Shown here piece by piece: positions 2,681 through 56,190 of a stretch of 64,000 bases of DNA. The notes under the pieces were generated by a model. The model ran no database searches. It had not been told where the DNA came from and saw nothing but the letters and a program-made list of their open reading frames with translations. A program made the position numbers and the translations under genes. The first letter of the stretch is position 1, and each line of letters begins with the position of its first letter. Origin of the DNA: the human T2T-CHM13v2.0 reference genome, Homo sapiens; assembly GCF_009914755.1 (NCBI RefSeq), contig NC_060945.1, one strand, 5' to 3'.

Positions 2681-3092
<412 letters not shown>

Positions 3093-3693: not shown

Positions 3694-4760
<1,067 letters not shown>

Positions 4761-19780: not shown

Positions 19781-21750
19781 CTTATATAGGTGGAATCATG
19801 AAGTATTTATCCTACTGTGTTACCTTATTTCACTTAGCATAATGGACGTTATTGATACTATCAAGTATGGCAGAATTTCATTCCTTTTAAAGGCTAAATA
19901 GCTTTCCATTGTAAACATATATCACATTTTCTACACCCATTTGCATGTCAATGGGTGTTTGTTTTCATATTTTGACTACTGTGAATACTGCTGCAATAGA
20001 CATGAGAGTGCAGATGTCTCTTTGAAATCCTGATTTTTTTTTTTATTATACTTTAAGTTCTGGGACACAAGTTCTGGGACACAGGTGCAAAACATGCAGG
20101 TTTGTTGTATAGGTATACATGTGCCATGGTGGTTTGCAGCACCCACCAACCTGTCATCTAGGTTTTAAGCCCCACATGCATTAGATGTTCCTCCTAATGC
20201 TATCCTTCCCCTTACTCCCAACCCCCAACAGGCCCCAGTGTGTGATGTTTCCCTCCCTGTGTCCATGTGTTCTCACTGTTCAACTCCCACTTATAAGTGA
20301 GAACATGCAGTGTTTGGTTTTCTGTTCCTGGGTTAGTTTGCTGAGAATGATGGTTTCTAGCTTCATCCATGTCCCTGCAAAGGATATGAACTCATTCTCT
20401 TTTTATGGCTGCATAGTATTTCATGGTGTATATGTGCCACATTTTCTTTATAGTCTATCATTGATGGGCATTTGGGTTGGTTCCAAGTCTTTGCTATTGT
20501 AAATAGTGCTGTAATAGACATATACGTGTGCATGTATATTTATAGTAGAATGATTTATAATCATTTGGTTATATACCCAGTAATGGGATTGTTGGGTCAA
20601 ATGGTATTTCTGGTTCTAGATCCTTGAGGAATCAGAGATCCTGATTTTAATTCTTTTGGATCTAGGCTCTGAAGTGGGATTGATGAATCAAATGGAAATT
20701 TTATTTTAATTTTTGTAGTTACTTTCATACTGTTTTACATAATGGTTGCACCATTTTACATTTCCACCAGTAGCATACAAGTTTCCCTTTCTCCACATCC
20801 TTGTCAACATTTGCTATCCTTTAACAAAAAAAAAGCCATTATAACAGGGGTGAAATTTTCATGTCCCTGAAAATTAATAATAATGAGCACATTTTCTTAC
20901 ACCTGTTGGTCATTTGTATGTCTTCTTTGGGTAAAGATTCATCCAGGTCTTTTTCCTTTTTTATATCAAATTGTTTCTTACTTACTATTGAGTTGTAGGA
21001 TCTTTTTATATATTTTGGATATTAACCCCTTACCAAATGTATGATTTGCAAATATTCCTCCCATTCCATATTTTACCTTTTCACTCTTTTGATGGTTTTC
21101 TTGCCTGAGTAGAAAGTGTTTTTAGTTTGTTTTAGTCCCAGTTGTCCTTGAAATCGGAATTACATTATAATTATAATTCTTGAGATAGAAGAATGCATTT
21201 TTGCTTCTGTTGCTTGTCCCTTTGGTGTAATATCCAATAAATCATCTAAAACTTTAACAATTACAGGTCTTATCTTTAATTCTTTAATACATTTTGAGTT
21301 GATTTTTGTGTATGGTGTAAGATAAGATTACAATTTCATTCTCTTCTATGTGAATATCCAGTATCAACTTTTAAGACACCAACAATTTCTCCATTGTGTA
21401 TTTTTAGCACCCTTGCTAAAATTATTTGACCAAGTATATGTGGGTTTATTTCTGTGCTATTTTGTTTAATTGGCTTATTTTTCTGATTTCAAGGCCAGTA
21501 CAATACTGTTTTAATTGTTGTAACTTTATAATATAATTTAATAAGAAAATGTGATGCCTTCAGCTTTGTTCTTCTTTCTTAAGATTGCTTGGGCTATTCT
21601 TGGTCTTTTGCAGTTTCACATAAATTTTGGAACTTCTTTCTCTTTCTATATTAAAAAATCAAGATTTTGGTAGAGATTACACTGGGACTTTAGATCACTT
21701 TAGGTAGTATGGACATTTTAACAGTAATAAGGCTTTCAACTCATGAACAT
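19781..21750 (-). mobile_element. L1MA-type 3' UTR/ORF2 fragment interrupted by an L1PA
   Basis: Antisense L1 motifs ('cttatttcacttagcataatg', 'gtgatgccttcagctttgttcttc', 'ggtagtatggacattttaaca'). Confidence 0.8.
20038..20634 (-). mobile_element. L1PA8-like 5'-truncated insertion
   Basis: Antisense 3' UTR with 'gtcatctaggttttaagcccc'; TSD ga(a/g)atcctgatttt at 20024-20037 and 20635-20648. Confidence 0.85.
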
Positions 21751-22519
21751 GAGAAAACTTATTCATCAAAAATGAAGAGATAAGGACTTTCCAAATAAAA
21801 TAAAAAAGAATTAATCCTCACTAGATATGCCTTACATCTGATTTTGCAGGGTACAGTCTCTACAGTTGCTTTCATGGGCTAGCACTGAGTGCCTTCCAAG
21901 CTGTCGATGAATGCAAAGGAGAAATGTGGGGTTGCAGCCCCCACACAGGGTCCCCACTGAAGCACTGACTAGTGGAATTGTGGGAATTGGGCCACAGTCC
22001 TCCAGACCCCACCCAGAAAGATGGATTCATCGACAGCTTGGAAGGCACTCAGTGCTAGCCCATGAAAGCAACTGTAGAGACTGTACCCTGCAAAATCAGA
22101 TGTAAGGCATATCTAGTGAGGATTAATTCTTTTTTATTTTATTTGGAAAGTCCTTATCTCTTCATTTTTGATGAATAAGTTTTCTCATGTTCATGAGTTG
22201 AAAGCCTTATTACTGTTAAAATGTCCATACTACCTAAAGTGATCTAAAGTCCCAGTGTAATCTCTACCAAAATCTTGATTTTTTAATATAGAAAGAGAAA
22301 GAAGTTCCAAAATTTATATGAAACTGCAAAAGACCAAGAATAGCCCAAGCAATCTTAAGAAAGAAGAACAAAGCTGAAGGCATCACATTTTCTTATTAAA
22401 TTATATTATAAAGTTACAACAATTAAAACAGTATTGTACTGGCCTTGAAATCAGAAAAATAAGCCAATTAAACAAAATAGCACAGAAATAAACCCACATA
22501 TACTTGGTCAAATAATTTT
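21418..22519. repeat. Long near-perfect inverted repeat: arms 21418-21912 and 22025-22519 (495 bp each), 112-bp spacer
   Basis: Base-by-base comparison shows exact reverse complementarity except 21619 C versus 22318 A. Confidence 0.97.
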
Positions 22520-23955
22520 TGTCCTAGCTGAGGTTCTCCATGAGGCCTCCAGCCCTGCAGCAGACTTCTGGGTGGACATCCAGGCATTTTCATATATCCT
22601 CTTAAAGCCAGGCAGAGGTTCCCAAAGCTCAATTCTTGTCTATTGTGCACCCACAGGACCAACAGCATGTGGAAGCCACCAAATCTTGGGGCTTGCACTC
22701 TCTACAGCAATGGCCAGAGCTGTATCTTGGCAACTTTTAGCCATGCTGGAGCCAGAGTGGCTGGGATGCAGGGGCACCATGTCCAAAGATTGCACAGAGC
22801 AGCAGGACCCTAAGCCTCTGACAAGCTCTGGAAGCATTTTCCCCATTGTCTGGGCTGTTAACATTCAGCTCCTTGTGACTTATGGAAATTTCTGCAGCTG
22901 GCTTGAATTTATTCCCAGAAAATGGGTTTTCCCTTTCTACCTCATGGTCAGGCTGCAAATTTTCCAAATTTTTATGCTCTGCTTCCCTTTTAAACATAAG
23001 TTCCAATTTAAAATAATCTTTTTGTGAACACATATAACTGTATGCTTTCAGGAAAAGCCAAATCACCTCTTAAATGCTTTTCTGCTTAGAATTTATTTTA
23101 CCAGATACCCTAAGCCATATCTCTCAAGTTCAAAGTTCTACAGCTCTCTAGGGTAGGGGCAAAATGCCACCAGTCTCTTTGCTAAAGCATAGCAAGGGTG
23201 ACCTTTGCTCCAGTTCCCAATAAGTTCCTCACCTCAATCTGAGACTGTGGGGGTTCAGTCAGAATGGTGGGAGAAGTTGTAAAATAGTCACAAACCTTCC
23301 AGGAAGGCCGGGGTTTTGCATAGCTTCAGTAAAAGATACGGCTGAAGCAGCCTAATCCTCTTTGAGCTAATAGCAAGGGTAAATAACAAAGGAATTCAAG
23401 GGAGTTTATCTAAATAGCTTGTTTACTCATGTGGTCCTAAGACCAACCTTTGATTTCCCACCGGTGCATAATTGCTCTCTACTGGGGCGCGGGAGGAGGG
23501 GGGTGTCGGCAATGTCAATTACCCTCTAGTGGTGTTTACTCAAGACTTTTGTCACTTACATACTGAATAAATGTGAGCTTCGCTGGCTGATCAGGGCCAC
23601 AGCTGCAACTCTTTACAGCACCCTCCCTGGTGTCTGTGAGTGGTCCAGACACTTAGCTGGACTGTCAGGCAAAATATCTGTGTCAGTGTACATTATTCAT
23701 CTGTCGTTGGGTCAGGATCTGCGGGTCAGTCTCCCACATGAGACTGCCTCAGTCTCGACTTCATTGTCCATATCACTATCAGCATTTTAGTCAAAACCAC
23801 GTAACAAGTCTCTAGTAAGTTCCAAACTTTTCCTTATTTTGTTGTCTTCTGAGTCCTCCAAACTGTTCCATCATTTGCTGGTTACCCAGTTCCAAAGTGG
23901 CTTTCACATTCTCAGGTATCTTATAGCAATATCCCACTACCTTGGTATCAATTCT
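21837..23955 (-). mobile_element. MSTA/THE1-type MaLR internal region, rearranged by the inverted repeat and interrupted by LTR22
   Basis: 'tttgcagggtacag', 'gaggttctccatgag', 'gcttccctttaaacataagttccaattt', 'ggttacccagttccaaagt...cccactaccttggtatcaatt'. Confidence 0.85.
23246..23738 (+). mobile_element. LTR22-family (HML-5) solo LTR
   Basis: TGTGGGGGTTCAGTCAGAATGGTGGGAGAA...CTCCCACA; perfect 6-bp TSD TGAGAC at 23240-23245 and 23739-23744. Confidence 0.85.
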
Positions 23956-24211
23956 CTATATTAGTTCATTCTCACACTACTATAAAGAATACCTGAGACT
24001 GGGTAATTTAGAAGAAAAAAGGAGATTTAATTGACTCACAGTTCTGCATGGCTGGGGAGGCCTCTGGAAACTTACAGTCATGGCAGAAGGCAAAGGGAAA
24101 GCAAGGCATGTCTTAAATGGCAGCACGAGGAAGACAGAGAGCATGCCTGAAGGTGGAAAATCCCCACATTTGTCAAACAACAAGATCTCATAAGAACTCT
24201 AGCATGAGAAC
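23956..24211 (-). mobile_element. MSTA-like 5' LTR, truncated
   Basis: 'tattagttcattctcacactactataaagaatacctgagactgggtaattta...gcatgagaac'; directly adjoins the MaLR internal region. Confidence 0.8.
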
Positions 24212-37321: not shown

Positions 37322-37690
37322 GATGTTGGTAGCGGTAGAGTGGGGTACTGCTATAAGGATACCCCAAAATGTGGAAGCGACTTTGGAACTAGGTAACAGA
37401 CAGAGGTTGGAACAGTTTGGAGGGCTCAGAAGAATACAGAAAAATATGGGAAAGTTTGGAACTTCCTAGAGACTTATTGAATGGTTTTGACCAAAATGCT
37501 AATAGTGATATTGACAAGAAAGTTCAGGCTAAGGTGGTCTCAGAAGGAGATGAGAAACTTCTTGGGAACTAGAGCAAAGATCATTCTTGTTATTCTTTAG
37601 AAAAAGAGACTGGCAGCATTTTGCCCCAGCTCTGGAGATCTGTGGAACTTTGGACTGGAGAGAGATGGTTTGGAATTGACACTTATGTTT
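37322..37690 (+). mobile_element. THE1/MSTA-type MaLR internal 5' segment
   Basis: 'gtagagtggggtactgctataaggataccccaaaatgtggaagcgactttggaactaggtaacagacagaggttggaacagtttggagggctcagaagaa'. Confidence 0.88.
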
Positions 37691-39545: not shown

Positions 39546-39549
39546 TTTA

Positions 39550-39725
39550 TATATATATATAATAATTTTATATTATATATTATATTATACATATATAATT
39601 ATATATATTTTGTATATATAATTATATATTATATTATATATATAATTATATATATATAATATATATATATAATTATATATATATAATATATATATATAAT
39701 TATATATATATATTATATACATATA
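39550..39725. repeat. (TA)n-rich low-complexity tract
   Basis: About 175 bp of almost pure A/T with repeated 'atatatataattatatat'. Confidence 0.9.
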
Positions 39726-39729
39726 ATCA

Positions 39730-54723: not shown

Positions 54724-55056
<333 letters not shown>

Positions 55057-55622
55057 TAAACAACATGAAAGCAGGAAGATGGTTAGCAGGCTGCTGCAGA
55101 GCCTAGATGGTTGTTAATAGCAGCTTGTTGAAGGACAAGTATAAAGGTAAATGACAAGTGACCATGTTCAGCATGTATTTTTGGTAGACAGATGGAGGTA
55201 TTGCTGATATATTACATGGAGGAAATAAGAGAAAAAAATGAGTAAGTGCAATTTCTCACTCAGTGGTTTAACAACTGAAGAAAGGACTTCTAGATTCTGA
55301 AATAAAATATTATGGAAGATGCAAAAGTTTATTGAAAGAAATAGTGTTACCATAGCCATGCATGTTAGGTCGCAGTATGGAGTATGGTTGAAATTCTGAG
55401 TGGAGGGTGTGTGAATCTGGTGTTCGGTGAGGTCAGGTGATAAGAATTTGAGCCACATGGCATATCATGACACACAAAATCATTTCTTCTGACGCTACTT
55501 CTATACATTCCAGTAAATAGAGGAAACATAAAGATTGAGGACTAAACCTTTAGGAAATTTGCAGTCAAGATTTTTTAACACAGGAGAAGATAATGAAGAT
55601 GATTTAGAATATATGGCTACAT

Positions 55623-56190
<568 letters not shown>

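What the first reader, a model, noticed from the sequence alone, without database searches (positions are those of the whole stretch)
21418..22519. Recent 495-bp near-perfect inverted duplication built from ancient repeat DNA
Seen: the arms 21418-21912 and 22025-22519 are exact reverse complements except one site (21619 C versus 22318 A). Each arm crosses two unrelated repeat junctions (antisense L1 ORF2, sense L1 ORF1-like piece, MaLR internal), so it cannot be two independent insertions. The underlying repeats are heavily decayed yet the arms differ by about 0.2%. Inference: the duplication is very recent (plausibly human-specific or polymorphic) or the arms are homogenised by gene conversion. 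Using the remembered MaLR-int consensus, the ancestor was A-B-C and the present state is A-B'-A'-C. About 3 bp of microhomology (AAT/ATT) at the switch point fits a replication template-switch or fold-back event. Long near-perfect inverted repeats with short spacers are known to be rare and unstable.
Basis: partly seen in the sequence, partly recalled or inferred. Interest (0 to 1): 0.85.

Follow-up and report, generated by a model that had tools for sequence, protein, structure and literature searches.

The report
Inverted duplication with flipped spacer, chr21
A 495-base stretch of old transposon debris on human chromosome 21 was copied in reverse next to itself and the 112 bases in between were flipped, a clean but ordinary example of a known kind of complex DNA rearrangement with no sign of function.

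Summary
Arms 21418-21912 and 22025-22519 are reverse complements with one mismatch in 495 (21619 C / 22318 A), separated by 112 nt.

Each arm crosses three unrelated repeat pieces: antisense L1 ORF2, sense L1 ORF1 C-terminus, and the internal part of an LTR element. It is therefore one duplication, not two insertions.

Six of six paralogous LTR-element copies from the same genome run from the inner end of the arm, through the reverse complement of the spacer, straight into 22520 onward. The two new junctions are 21912/21913 and 22519/22520.

This is a duplication-flanked inversion ("dupINV"), equivalent to a "3-1-2-4" template switch. Both are described classes.

Age could not be tested, because no other human or ape assembly was available. 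One difference in 495 gives about 2 My (0.05-11 My) without gene conversion.

The 3-nt microhomology depends on an unknown ancestral dinucleotide. The 112-nt spacer makes the repeat much less fragile than a true palindrome. No function is indicated.

The parts
20842..21417 (-). Left flank X: decayed L1 ORF2 (antisense on the + strand), continuous with the left arm
   Evidence: 21163-21327(-) matches human LINE-1 ORF2p residues 952-985, E 1.8e-5. 20842-21021(-) matches residues 1060-1107 only weakly, E 0.28. 18 of 18 L1 paralogs align across 21417/21418 without a break.
21418..21912 (+). Left arm A (495 nt). Its outer junction with X is ancestral; its inner junction J1 (21912/21913) is new.
21418..21754 (-). 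Arm block 1: L1 ORF2 fragment, antisense
   Evidence: 38 paralogous matches in the assembly cover window 21300-21754 at 70-74% identity. No direct Pfam or PDB hit for the short stop-free pieces inside the arm.
21752..21836 (+). Arm block 2: L1 ORF1 C-terminal piece, sense
   Evidence: 3 paralogs found. In 2 of them the matching strand encodes Pfam Tnp_22_dsRBD (E 1.1e-11 and 5.2e-9), with Transposase_22 just upstream in one. The window piece itself gave no hit.
21839..21912 (+). Arm block 3: internal part of an LTR element (MaLR-like; name recalled)
   Evidence: Paralog matches. In 5 of 5 paralog loci tested the homologous region lies between direct repeats 1.8-2.05 kb apart at 74-89% identity.
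21913..22024 (-). Spacer B' (112 nt, 57% GC): the same LTR-element internal sequence, inverted relative to both A and the right flank
   Evidence: 6 of 6 paralogs align to 22098..21912 on the strand opposite to the one on which they align to 22520 onward. GC.
22025..22519 (-). Right arm A' (495 nt). Its inner junction with the spacer is ancestral (reverse complement of A-B); its outer junction J2 (22519/22520) is new.
   Evidence: The within-window L1 paralog alignment stops exactly at 22519.
22520..23245 (+). Right flank C: continuation of the LTR-element internal sequence
   Evidence: Paralogs L003-L008 continue from the end of the reverse-complemented spacer into 22519/22520-22817 and on to 23245.
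21619..21619 (+). The only arm difference (C here; the right arm at 22318 corresponds to T)
   Evidence: At the aligned site, L1 paralogs carry T in 13, C in 4 and A in 1 of 18.

Best explanation
This is a genuine germline rearrangement of the duplication-flanked-inversion type, with no function.

The ancestral locus read X-A-B-C. X-A is a decayed antisense L1. The end of A, together with B and C, is one continuous LTR-element internal region.

In a single event the 607-nt segment A-B was copied from the opposite strand and laid down after the first copy of A. Synthesis then resumed at C, giving X-A-B'-A'-C.

The most likely route is a replicative switch-and-return. The nascent strand leaves its template at the end of A (21912). 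It re-primes on the complementary strand at the B/C boundary using 1-3 nt of homology. It copies back through B and A to 21418. It then returns to the original template at the first base of C using about 1 nt of homology. In the four-point model this is switch-point order 3-1-2-4.

Shown: the structure, the ancestral order and the two new junctions.
Inferred: the replicative route, neutrality, and an age probably under about 10 My.

The product can fold into a 495-bp hairpin as single-stranded DNA or as RNA, but nothing indicates that this is used.
For: - Exact inverted repeat with 1 mismatch in 495.
- 6 of 6 paralogous copies are colinear with arm end, then reverse-complemented spacer, then 22520 onward. 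In 5 of 6, exactly 2 nt lie between the spacer end and the start of C, so both new junctions map to one ancestral point with no loss of sequence.
- None of the 46 paralog matches crosses 21912/21913.
- 18 of 18 L1 paralogs cross 21417/21418, whereas the L1 match on the right arm stops at 22519.
- Junction homology is short, 1-3 nt and about 1 nt.
- CNV-flanked inversions, including dupINV, are the largest class of complex structural variants and were attributed to MMBIR/FoSTeS or to joint repair of several breaks (PMC5338099, passages read).
- No Rfam family in 20000-24000. The region lies in a gene-poor stretch, inside an intron of a predicted lncRNA (hub annotation).
- The arms differ at one site, which a library or assembly fold-back chimera copied from one molecule would not show.
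Against: - The ancestral allele is inferred from paralogs, not from an orthologue.
- The catalogued 3-1-2-4 events are tens of bases long, whereas here 607 nt were copied.
- In a pure template-switch model, nothing forces the landing point and the return point to be adjacent, as they are here. A break at the B/C point explains that more naturally.
- Homology at the junctions may be as low as 1 nt. That fits end joining as well as re-priming.
- Age and fixation status are unknown.
Confidence: 0.5

Rival explanations
1. Inversion by staggered breaks. Two single-strand nicks 495 nt apart (at X/A on one strand and A/B on the other), plus a break at B/C, free the segment A-B. The overhangs are filled in, so A becomes double-stranded on both pieces. 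The middle piece is re-joined upside down by end joining, giving X-A-B'-A'-C.
For: - It yields exactly the observed structure.
- It explains why both new junctions sit at one ancestral point.
- Junction homology of 1-3 nt and about 1 nt fits end joining.
- In Drosophila, 17 of 29 fixed inversions carry such inverted duplications (median 321 bp, range 46 bp to about 1.9 kb), often at one breakpoint only (PMC1885836, passages read).
Against: - It requires unwinding of 495 nt between nicks, a difficulty the authors themselves note.
- The known cases flank large chromosomal inversions, not a 112-nt segment.
- Nothing in the sequence marks nick sites.
Confidence: 0.2
2. Two steps. First, a break at B/C lets the 3' end fold back and prime at the end of A (or an inverted copy of A is otherwise inserted at B/C), giving X-A-B-A'-C. 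Later, recombination between the two arms flips the spacer.
For: - Both new junctions fall at the same ancestral point, as an insertion at a break predicts.
- Read on the other strand, the J1 homology is the fold-back priming site.
- 495-nt identical arms are a plausible substrate for intramolecular exchange (inference).
Against: - It needs two rare events where one suffices.
- No intermediate has been seen, though none could be looked for here.
- Fold-back synthesis must stop at 21418 and be captured by the other end.
Confidence: 0.15
3. The duplication is old (tens of millions of years) and the arms are kept nearly identical by arm-to-arm gene conversion, as in sex-chromosome palindromes. 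This concerns age and could apply to any of the origins above.
For: - Large X-chromosome palindromes keep more than 99% arm identity and are conserved from human to macaque (PMC8327919 and PMC8981503, abstracts in the search listing only).
- Nothing here excludes conversion.
Against: - Without conversion, P(at most 1 difference) is 0.005 at 15 My and 1.4e-5 at 28 My, so this reading depends entirely on conversion.
- There is no GC enrichment of the arms, as GC-biased conversion would tend to give. The L1 part of the arm is 29.4% GC against 30.3% in the adjoining unduplicated L1. This is weak evidence.
- The arms are 495 nt, far shorter than the known conserved palindromes.
Confidence: 0.12
4. 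Assembly or library artefact: a fold-back chimeric read, or polymerase strand switching during sequencing.
For: Only one assembly could be examined. Inverted chimeras are a known artefact of some library methods (recalled).
Against: - The structure returns precisely to the ancestral sequence at 22520 after the inverted copy, whereas a fold-back chimera would not.
- The arms differ at one base.
- The whole feature is 1.1 kb, far shorter than the long reads behind such an assembly (recalled).
Confidence: 0.03

Closest known systems
Template-switch mutation, four-point model type 3-1-2-4 / 1-3-4-2 (Loytynoja & Goldman 2017, PMC5453318)
   Same: [quoted passage not shown] This creates an inverted repeat whose spacer is itself inverted. 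[quoted passage not shown]
   Different: The published events are mutation clusters of tens of bases found in human-chimp alignments, and repeat-masked fragments were filtered out. Here the copied fragment is 607 nt and lies wholly in repeats. The ancestral state is inferred from paralogs.
dupINV / INVdup complex structural variant (Collins et al. 2017, PMC5338099)
   Same: An inversion flanked on one side by a duplication in inverted orientation, with two new junctions.
   Different: That catalogue is of large variants from jumping libraries (kb to Mb). This one is 495 + 112 nt, and it is not known here to be polymorphic.
Inversion-associated inverted duplications from staggered breaks (Ranz et al. 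2007, PMC1885836)
   Same: An ancestrally single-copy stretch is duplicated in inverted orientation at the edge of an inverted segment. The duplication size is within their range.
   Different: Those flank chromosomal inversions in Drosophila. Here the inverted unique segment is only 112 nt.
PATRRs and other fragile palindromes (review PMC7999016)
   Same: Several-hundred-base, near-perfect inverted arms in non-coding human DNA.
   Different: PATRRs have essentially no spacer and are over 90% AT. Here the spacer is 112 nt at 57% GC and the arms are about 69% AT. No link to translocations is known.

Membership tests
Template-switch mutation type 3-1-2-4 (four-point model) | A middle fragment that is the reverse complement of adjacent reference sequence | tested here: met
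   22519..21913 is the reverse complement of A plus the ancestral spacer.
Template-switch mutation type 3-1-2-4 (four-point model) | Switch points ordered 3 < 1 < 2 <= 4 on the ancestral sequence | tested here: met
   Point 3 = 21418; point 1 = 21912; points 2 and 4 = the ancestral B/C point. The order comes from 6 of 6 paralogs. The ancestor is inferred, not observed.
Template-switch mutation type 3-1-2-4 (four-point model) | Ancestral form seen in an orthologous or allelic sequence | not testable with these tools
   No other human or ape assembly is held; the genome search gives only this genome.
Template-switch mutation type 3-1-2-4 (four-point model) | Short range (a few tens of bases) | tested here: not met
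   The copied fragment is 607 nt. The paper restricts itself to short events (PMC5453318).
dupINV complex structural variant | Inverted segment with a duplication at one breakpoint and two novel junctions | tested here: met
   Novel junctions at 21912/21913 and 22519/22520; ancestral junctions at 21417/21418 and 22024/22025.
dupINV complex structural variant | Segregates as a variant among people | not testable with these tools
   The only indirect look was the supplement of PMC10150506, which holds no row with a coordinate starting 2072 or 2073. An ancestral allele would more likely be called a deletion there.
Staggered-break inversion | Inverted duplication of ancestrally single-copy sequence abutting the inverted segment | tested here: met
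   495 nt lies within the 46 bp to 1.9 kb range reported.
Fragile palindrome / PATRR | Little or no spacer | tested here: not met
   112 nt between the arms.
Fragile palindrome / PATRR | More than 90% AT | tested here: not met
   Arms 31.5% GC, spacer 57.1% GC.
Palindrome maintained by gene conversion | Arm identity above 99% | tested here: met
   494 of 495.
Palindrome maintained by gene conversion | Present in distant species | not testable with these tools
   No primate genomes held.
Palindrome maintained by gene conversion | GC enrichment of arms relative to flanks | tested here: not met
   L1 part of the arm 29.4% GC against 30.3% in the adjoining L1 flank. This is a weak test on 337 nt.

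The most novel reading that the evidence does not exclude
The inverted copy is human-specific or still segregating. As a 495-bp perfect hairpin inside a transcribed lncRNA intron, it would then act as a young source of long double-stranded RNA (editing or small-RNA substrate), or as a local replication or recombination hazard whose spacer flips between haplotypes. That would make it a dated natural example of hairpin birth by one large template switch.
Probability: 0.07. Interest if true: 0.5.

Novelty: new member of a known kind. Interest (0 to 1): 0.3.

Why it matters
It is a clean case in which every junction of a complex rearrangement can be assigned as old or new from the genome's own paralogous repeats, without an outgroup.

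Its size falls between the short template-switch clusters (tens of bases) and the large duplication-flanked inversions (kb to Mb) that have been catalogued.

If it proves young or polymorphic, it would be a convenient marker for the rate of such events and for how long a 0.5-kb hairpin-forming repeat with a roughly 100-nt spacer survives. Otherwise it is neutral junk-DNA history.

Tried and rejected
- **Pfam on six long translations:** Repeated with 13 stop-free pieces of 25-64 aa from 20842-22048, which gave 0 families.
- **PDB sequence search, pieces inside the arm:** three pieces gave nothing. The L1 ORF2 label for the arm therefore rests on the flank hit plus colinear paralogs.
- **Pfam on 12 open frames in L1 paralog loci:** only one sub-threshold RVT_1 hit (20.1 bits against a cut-off of 29.6) and an unrelated EF-Tu pseudogene.
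- **Rfam:** only one chance-level hit outside the feature.
- **Retrocopy origin of the second arm:** rejected. There is no poly-A at either end of 22025-22519, and the source lies 112 nt away.
- **Two independent transposon insertions:** rejected. The arms share three unrelated repeat blocks and their junctions.
- **Direction of the single substitution:** paralogs favour T (13 of 18), so the left-arm C is probably derived. This does not help with dating.
- **Search for the locus in a T2T inversion callset supplement:** nothing found. The PDF supplement of that paper could not be read.
- **Literature:** none of the literature searches was locus-specific. I therefore make no claim that this locus is or is not in print.

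Full report
**1. Observation**

The repeat finder on 20000-24000 gives one inverted pair, 21418-21915 / 22022-22519. A base-by-base check shows 495 consecutive complementary positions (21418-21912 against 22519-22025) with one mismatch, 21619 C opposite 22318 A. Position 21913/22024 then mismatches and two further bases pair by chance.

On one strand the difference is C against T in a non-CpG context. Pairing ends abruptly at 21417/22520.

In the whole window the next-best inverted repeats within 5 kb are 130-141 nt at 84-92%, plus AT-rich low-complexity DNA (15 pairs listed). In the whole assembly the arm sequence has just these two 100% copies.

**2. What the arms are made of**

*Block 1, 21418-21754.* A search of the window's own genome with 21300-21860 returned 38 paralogous matches at 70-74% identity covering window 21300-21754. 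In the 18 loci fetched, 18 of 18 align straight across 21417/21418.
- The adjoining minus-strand frame 21163-21327 matches human LINE-1 ORF2p residues 952-985 (E 1.8e-5).
- Frame 20842-21021 matches residues 1060-1107 only weakly (E 0.28).
- This block is therefore antisense L1 ORF2.
- The short frames inside the arm itself gave no Pfam or PDB hit.

*Block 2, 21752-21836.* This block has three paralogs. In two of them the strand that matches the window's + strand encodes Pfam Tnp_22_dsRBD (E 1.1e-11 and 5.2e-9, above the cut-offs). One also has Transposase_22 just upstream. The block is therefore an L1 ORF1 C-terminal piece in sense orientation.

*Block 3, from 21839.* From here the arm belongs to a family with many copies. 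In 5 of 5 paralog loci tested, that family lies between direct repeats 1.8-2.05 kb apart at 74-89% identity. This makes it the internal part of an LTR element. The name MaLR is from recall.

Two independent insertions cannot reproduce three unrelated blocks and their junctions, so the arms come from one duplication.

**3. Ancestral order**

Six paralogous copies of the LTR-element interior (L003-L008) were aligned to 21000-23500. These were all the non-self loci that one search returned.
- In 6 of 6, one uninterrupted stretch of the paralog matches 22098..21912 on one strand and then 22519/22530 onward on the other strand, continuing to 22817 and 23245.
- The same paralog stretch also matches the left-arm end (21839-21894) in the orientation that precedes the reverse-complemented spacer.
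- None of the 46 paralog matches crosses 21912/21913.
- The within-window L1 alignment of the right arm ends exactly at 22519.

The ancestral order was therefore X-A-B-C. The present order is X-A-B'-A'-C, where the spacer B' is the inverted B. The junctions 21417/21418 and 22024/22025 are old. J1 (21912/21913) and J2 (22519/22520) are new.

**4. Junction detail**

In 5 of 6 paralogs exactly two bases lie between the end of the reverse-complemented spacer and the start of C. They are AT once and AC four times; L006 is ambiguous.
- Both new junctions therefore map to one ancestral point. At most two bases were lost, and the ancestral allele would be about 493 bp shorter.
- If the locus had AT, J1 shares 3 nt (AAT, or ATT on the other strand). 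If it had AC, J1 shares 1 nt. J2 shares about 1 nt.

**5. Mechanism**

The structure is what the four-point template-switch model calls type 3-1-2-4. [quoted passage not shown] That catalogue deals with events of tens of bases and excluded repeat-masked fragments. Here 607 nt were copied.

In structural-variant terms it is a dupINV. CNV-flanked inversions were 77.2% of complex variants in one survey, and were ascribed either to MMBIR/FoSTeS or to joint repair of several breaks (PMC5338099, passages read).

Two rivals give the identical product:
- **Staggered breaks.** Staggered single-strand breaks followed by fill-in and inverted re-joining. This was proposed for 17 of 29 Drosophila inversions, with duplications of 46 bp to about 1.9 kb (PMC1885836, passages read).
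- **Two steps.** Fold-back priming or an inverted insertion at a break at the B/C point, followed by recombination between the arms that flips the spacer.

Both new junctions sit at one ancestral point. This is natural for the break-based routes and coincidental for a pure switch-and-return. A single haplotype cannot separate the three. I put the replicative route at about 0.5.

A retrocopy origin is rejected. The second arm has no poly-A at either end and lies 112 nt from its source.

**6. Age**

No other human or ape assembly is available here (this genome has no relatives held).

Without gene conversion, and using a recalled rate of 0.5e-9 per site per year, one difference in 495 gives about 2.0 My (95% interval 0.05-11.3 My). 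The probability of at most one difference depends on the age assumed:

| Age assumed | P(at most 1 difference) |
|---|---|
| 6.5 My | 0.17 |
| 9 My | 0.06 |
| 15 My | 0.005 |
| 28 My | 1.4e-5 |

A human-lineage origin and an African-ape origin are therefore both open. Anything older needs gene conversion.

The arms show no GC enrichment over the adjoining unduplicated L1 (29.4% against 30.3%). This is weak evidence against long-running GC-biased conversion of the kind described for conserved X palindromes (PMC8981503 and PMC8327919, abstracts in the listing only).

At the one variable site, L1 paralogs carry T in 13, C in 4 and A in 1 of 18. The left-arm C is probably the derived state.

**7. 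Artefact?**

This is unlikely, for three reasons.
- The sequence returns to the exact ancestral continuation after the inverted copy.
- The arms differ at one base.
- The feature is only 1.1 kb.

It could not be checked against reads.

The supplement tables of a T2T-based inversion survey hold 16 chr21 mentions but no coordinate beginning 2072 or 2073. That is uninformative, because an ancestral allele would look like a deletion there. The PDF supplement could not be read.

**8. Consequences**

As single-stranded DNA, 21418-22519 folds into one 495-bp stem (-606 kcal/mol). This follows trivially from the repeat.

No Rfam family matches in 20000-24000 apart from one chance-level hit outside the feature.

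- In yeast, lengthening the spacer from 12 to 100 bp lowers repeat-induced recombination about 300-fold, and from 12 to 200 bp lowers gross rearrangements about 20-fold (PMC10164571, passages read).
- PATRR-type fragile palindromes have no spacer and are over 90% AT (PMC7999016, passages read). Here the spacer is 112 nt at 57% GC and the arms are 31.5% GC.

**9. Verdict**

Recency is untested, the microhomology is uncertain, and the instability claim is overstated. This is a tidy new example of a known class of complex rearrangement in non-functional repeat DNA, of modest interest.

Noticed in passing
window 21752-21754 (boundary of the two L1 pieces inside the arm; also 22183-22185 in the right arm): An antisense L1 ORF2 fragment (about residue 810 onward, by extrapolation) abuts a sense L1 ORF1 C-terminal fragment. 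They are in opposite orientations and about 2.5 kb apart in L1 coordinates (recalled layout). This is either an older L1 5'-inversion with an internal deletion or two separate L1 fragments. It predates the duplication, because both arms carry it.
   Followed up: partly
window 39547-39727: AT-rich low-complexity stretch giving many short overlapping inverted repeats (41-70 nt, 70-98%) with spacers of 1-40 nt. This is quasi-palindromic AT microsatellite DNA.
   Followed up: no
window 2797-3092 / 4010-4294 and 54735-55041 / 55619-55921: Inverted repeat pairs of 130-141 nt at 84-92% with spacers of 0.6-1.2 kb. They look like ordinary inverted Alu pairs (one listed pair shows Alu-like sequence; name recalled).
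   Followed up: no
L011:2056-3041 (+), a paralog locus on contig C1: Two open frames next to an L1 copy match Pfam GTP_EFTU (E 3.2e-20 and 9.1e-9). This is probably a processed pseudogene of an elongation-factor gene and is unrelated to the finding.
   Followed up: no
window 23112-23245 vs 37537-37671: A second partial copy (81% identity, opposite strand) of the end of the same LTR-element interior lies 14 kb downstream in the window.
   Followed up: no
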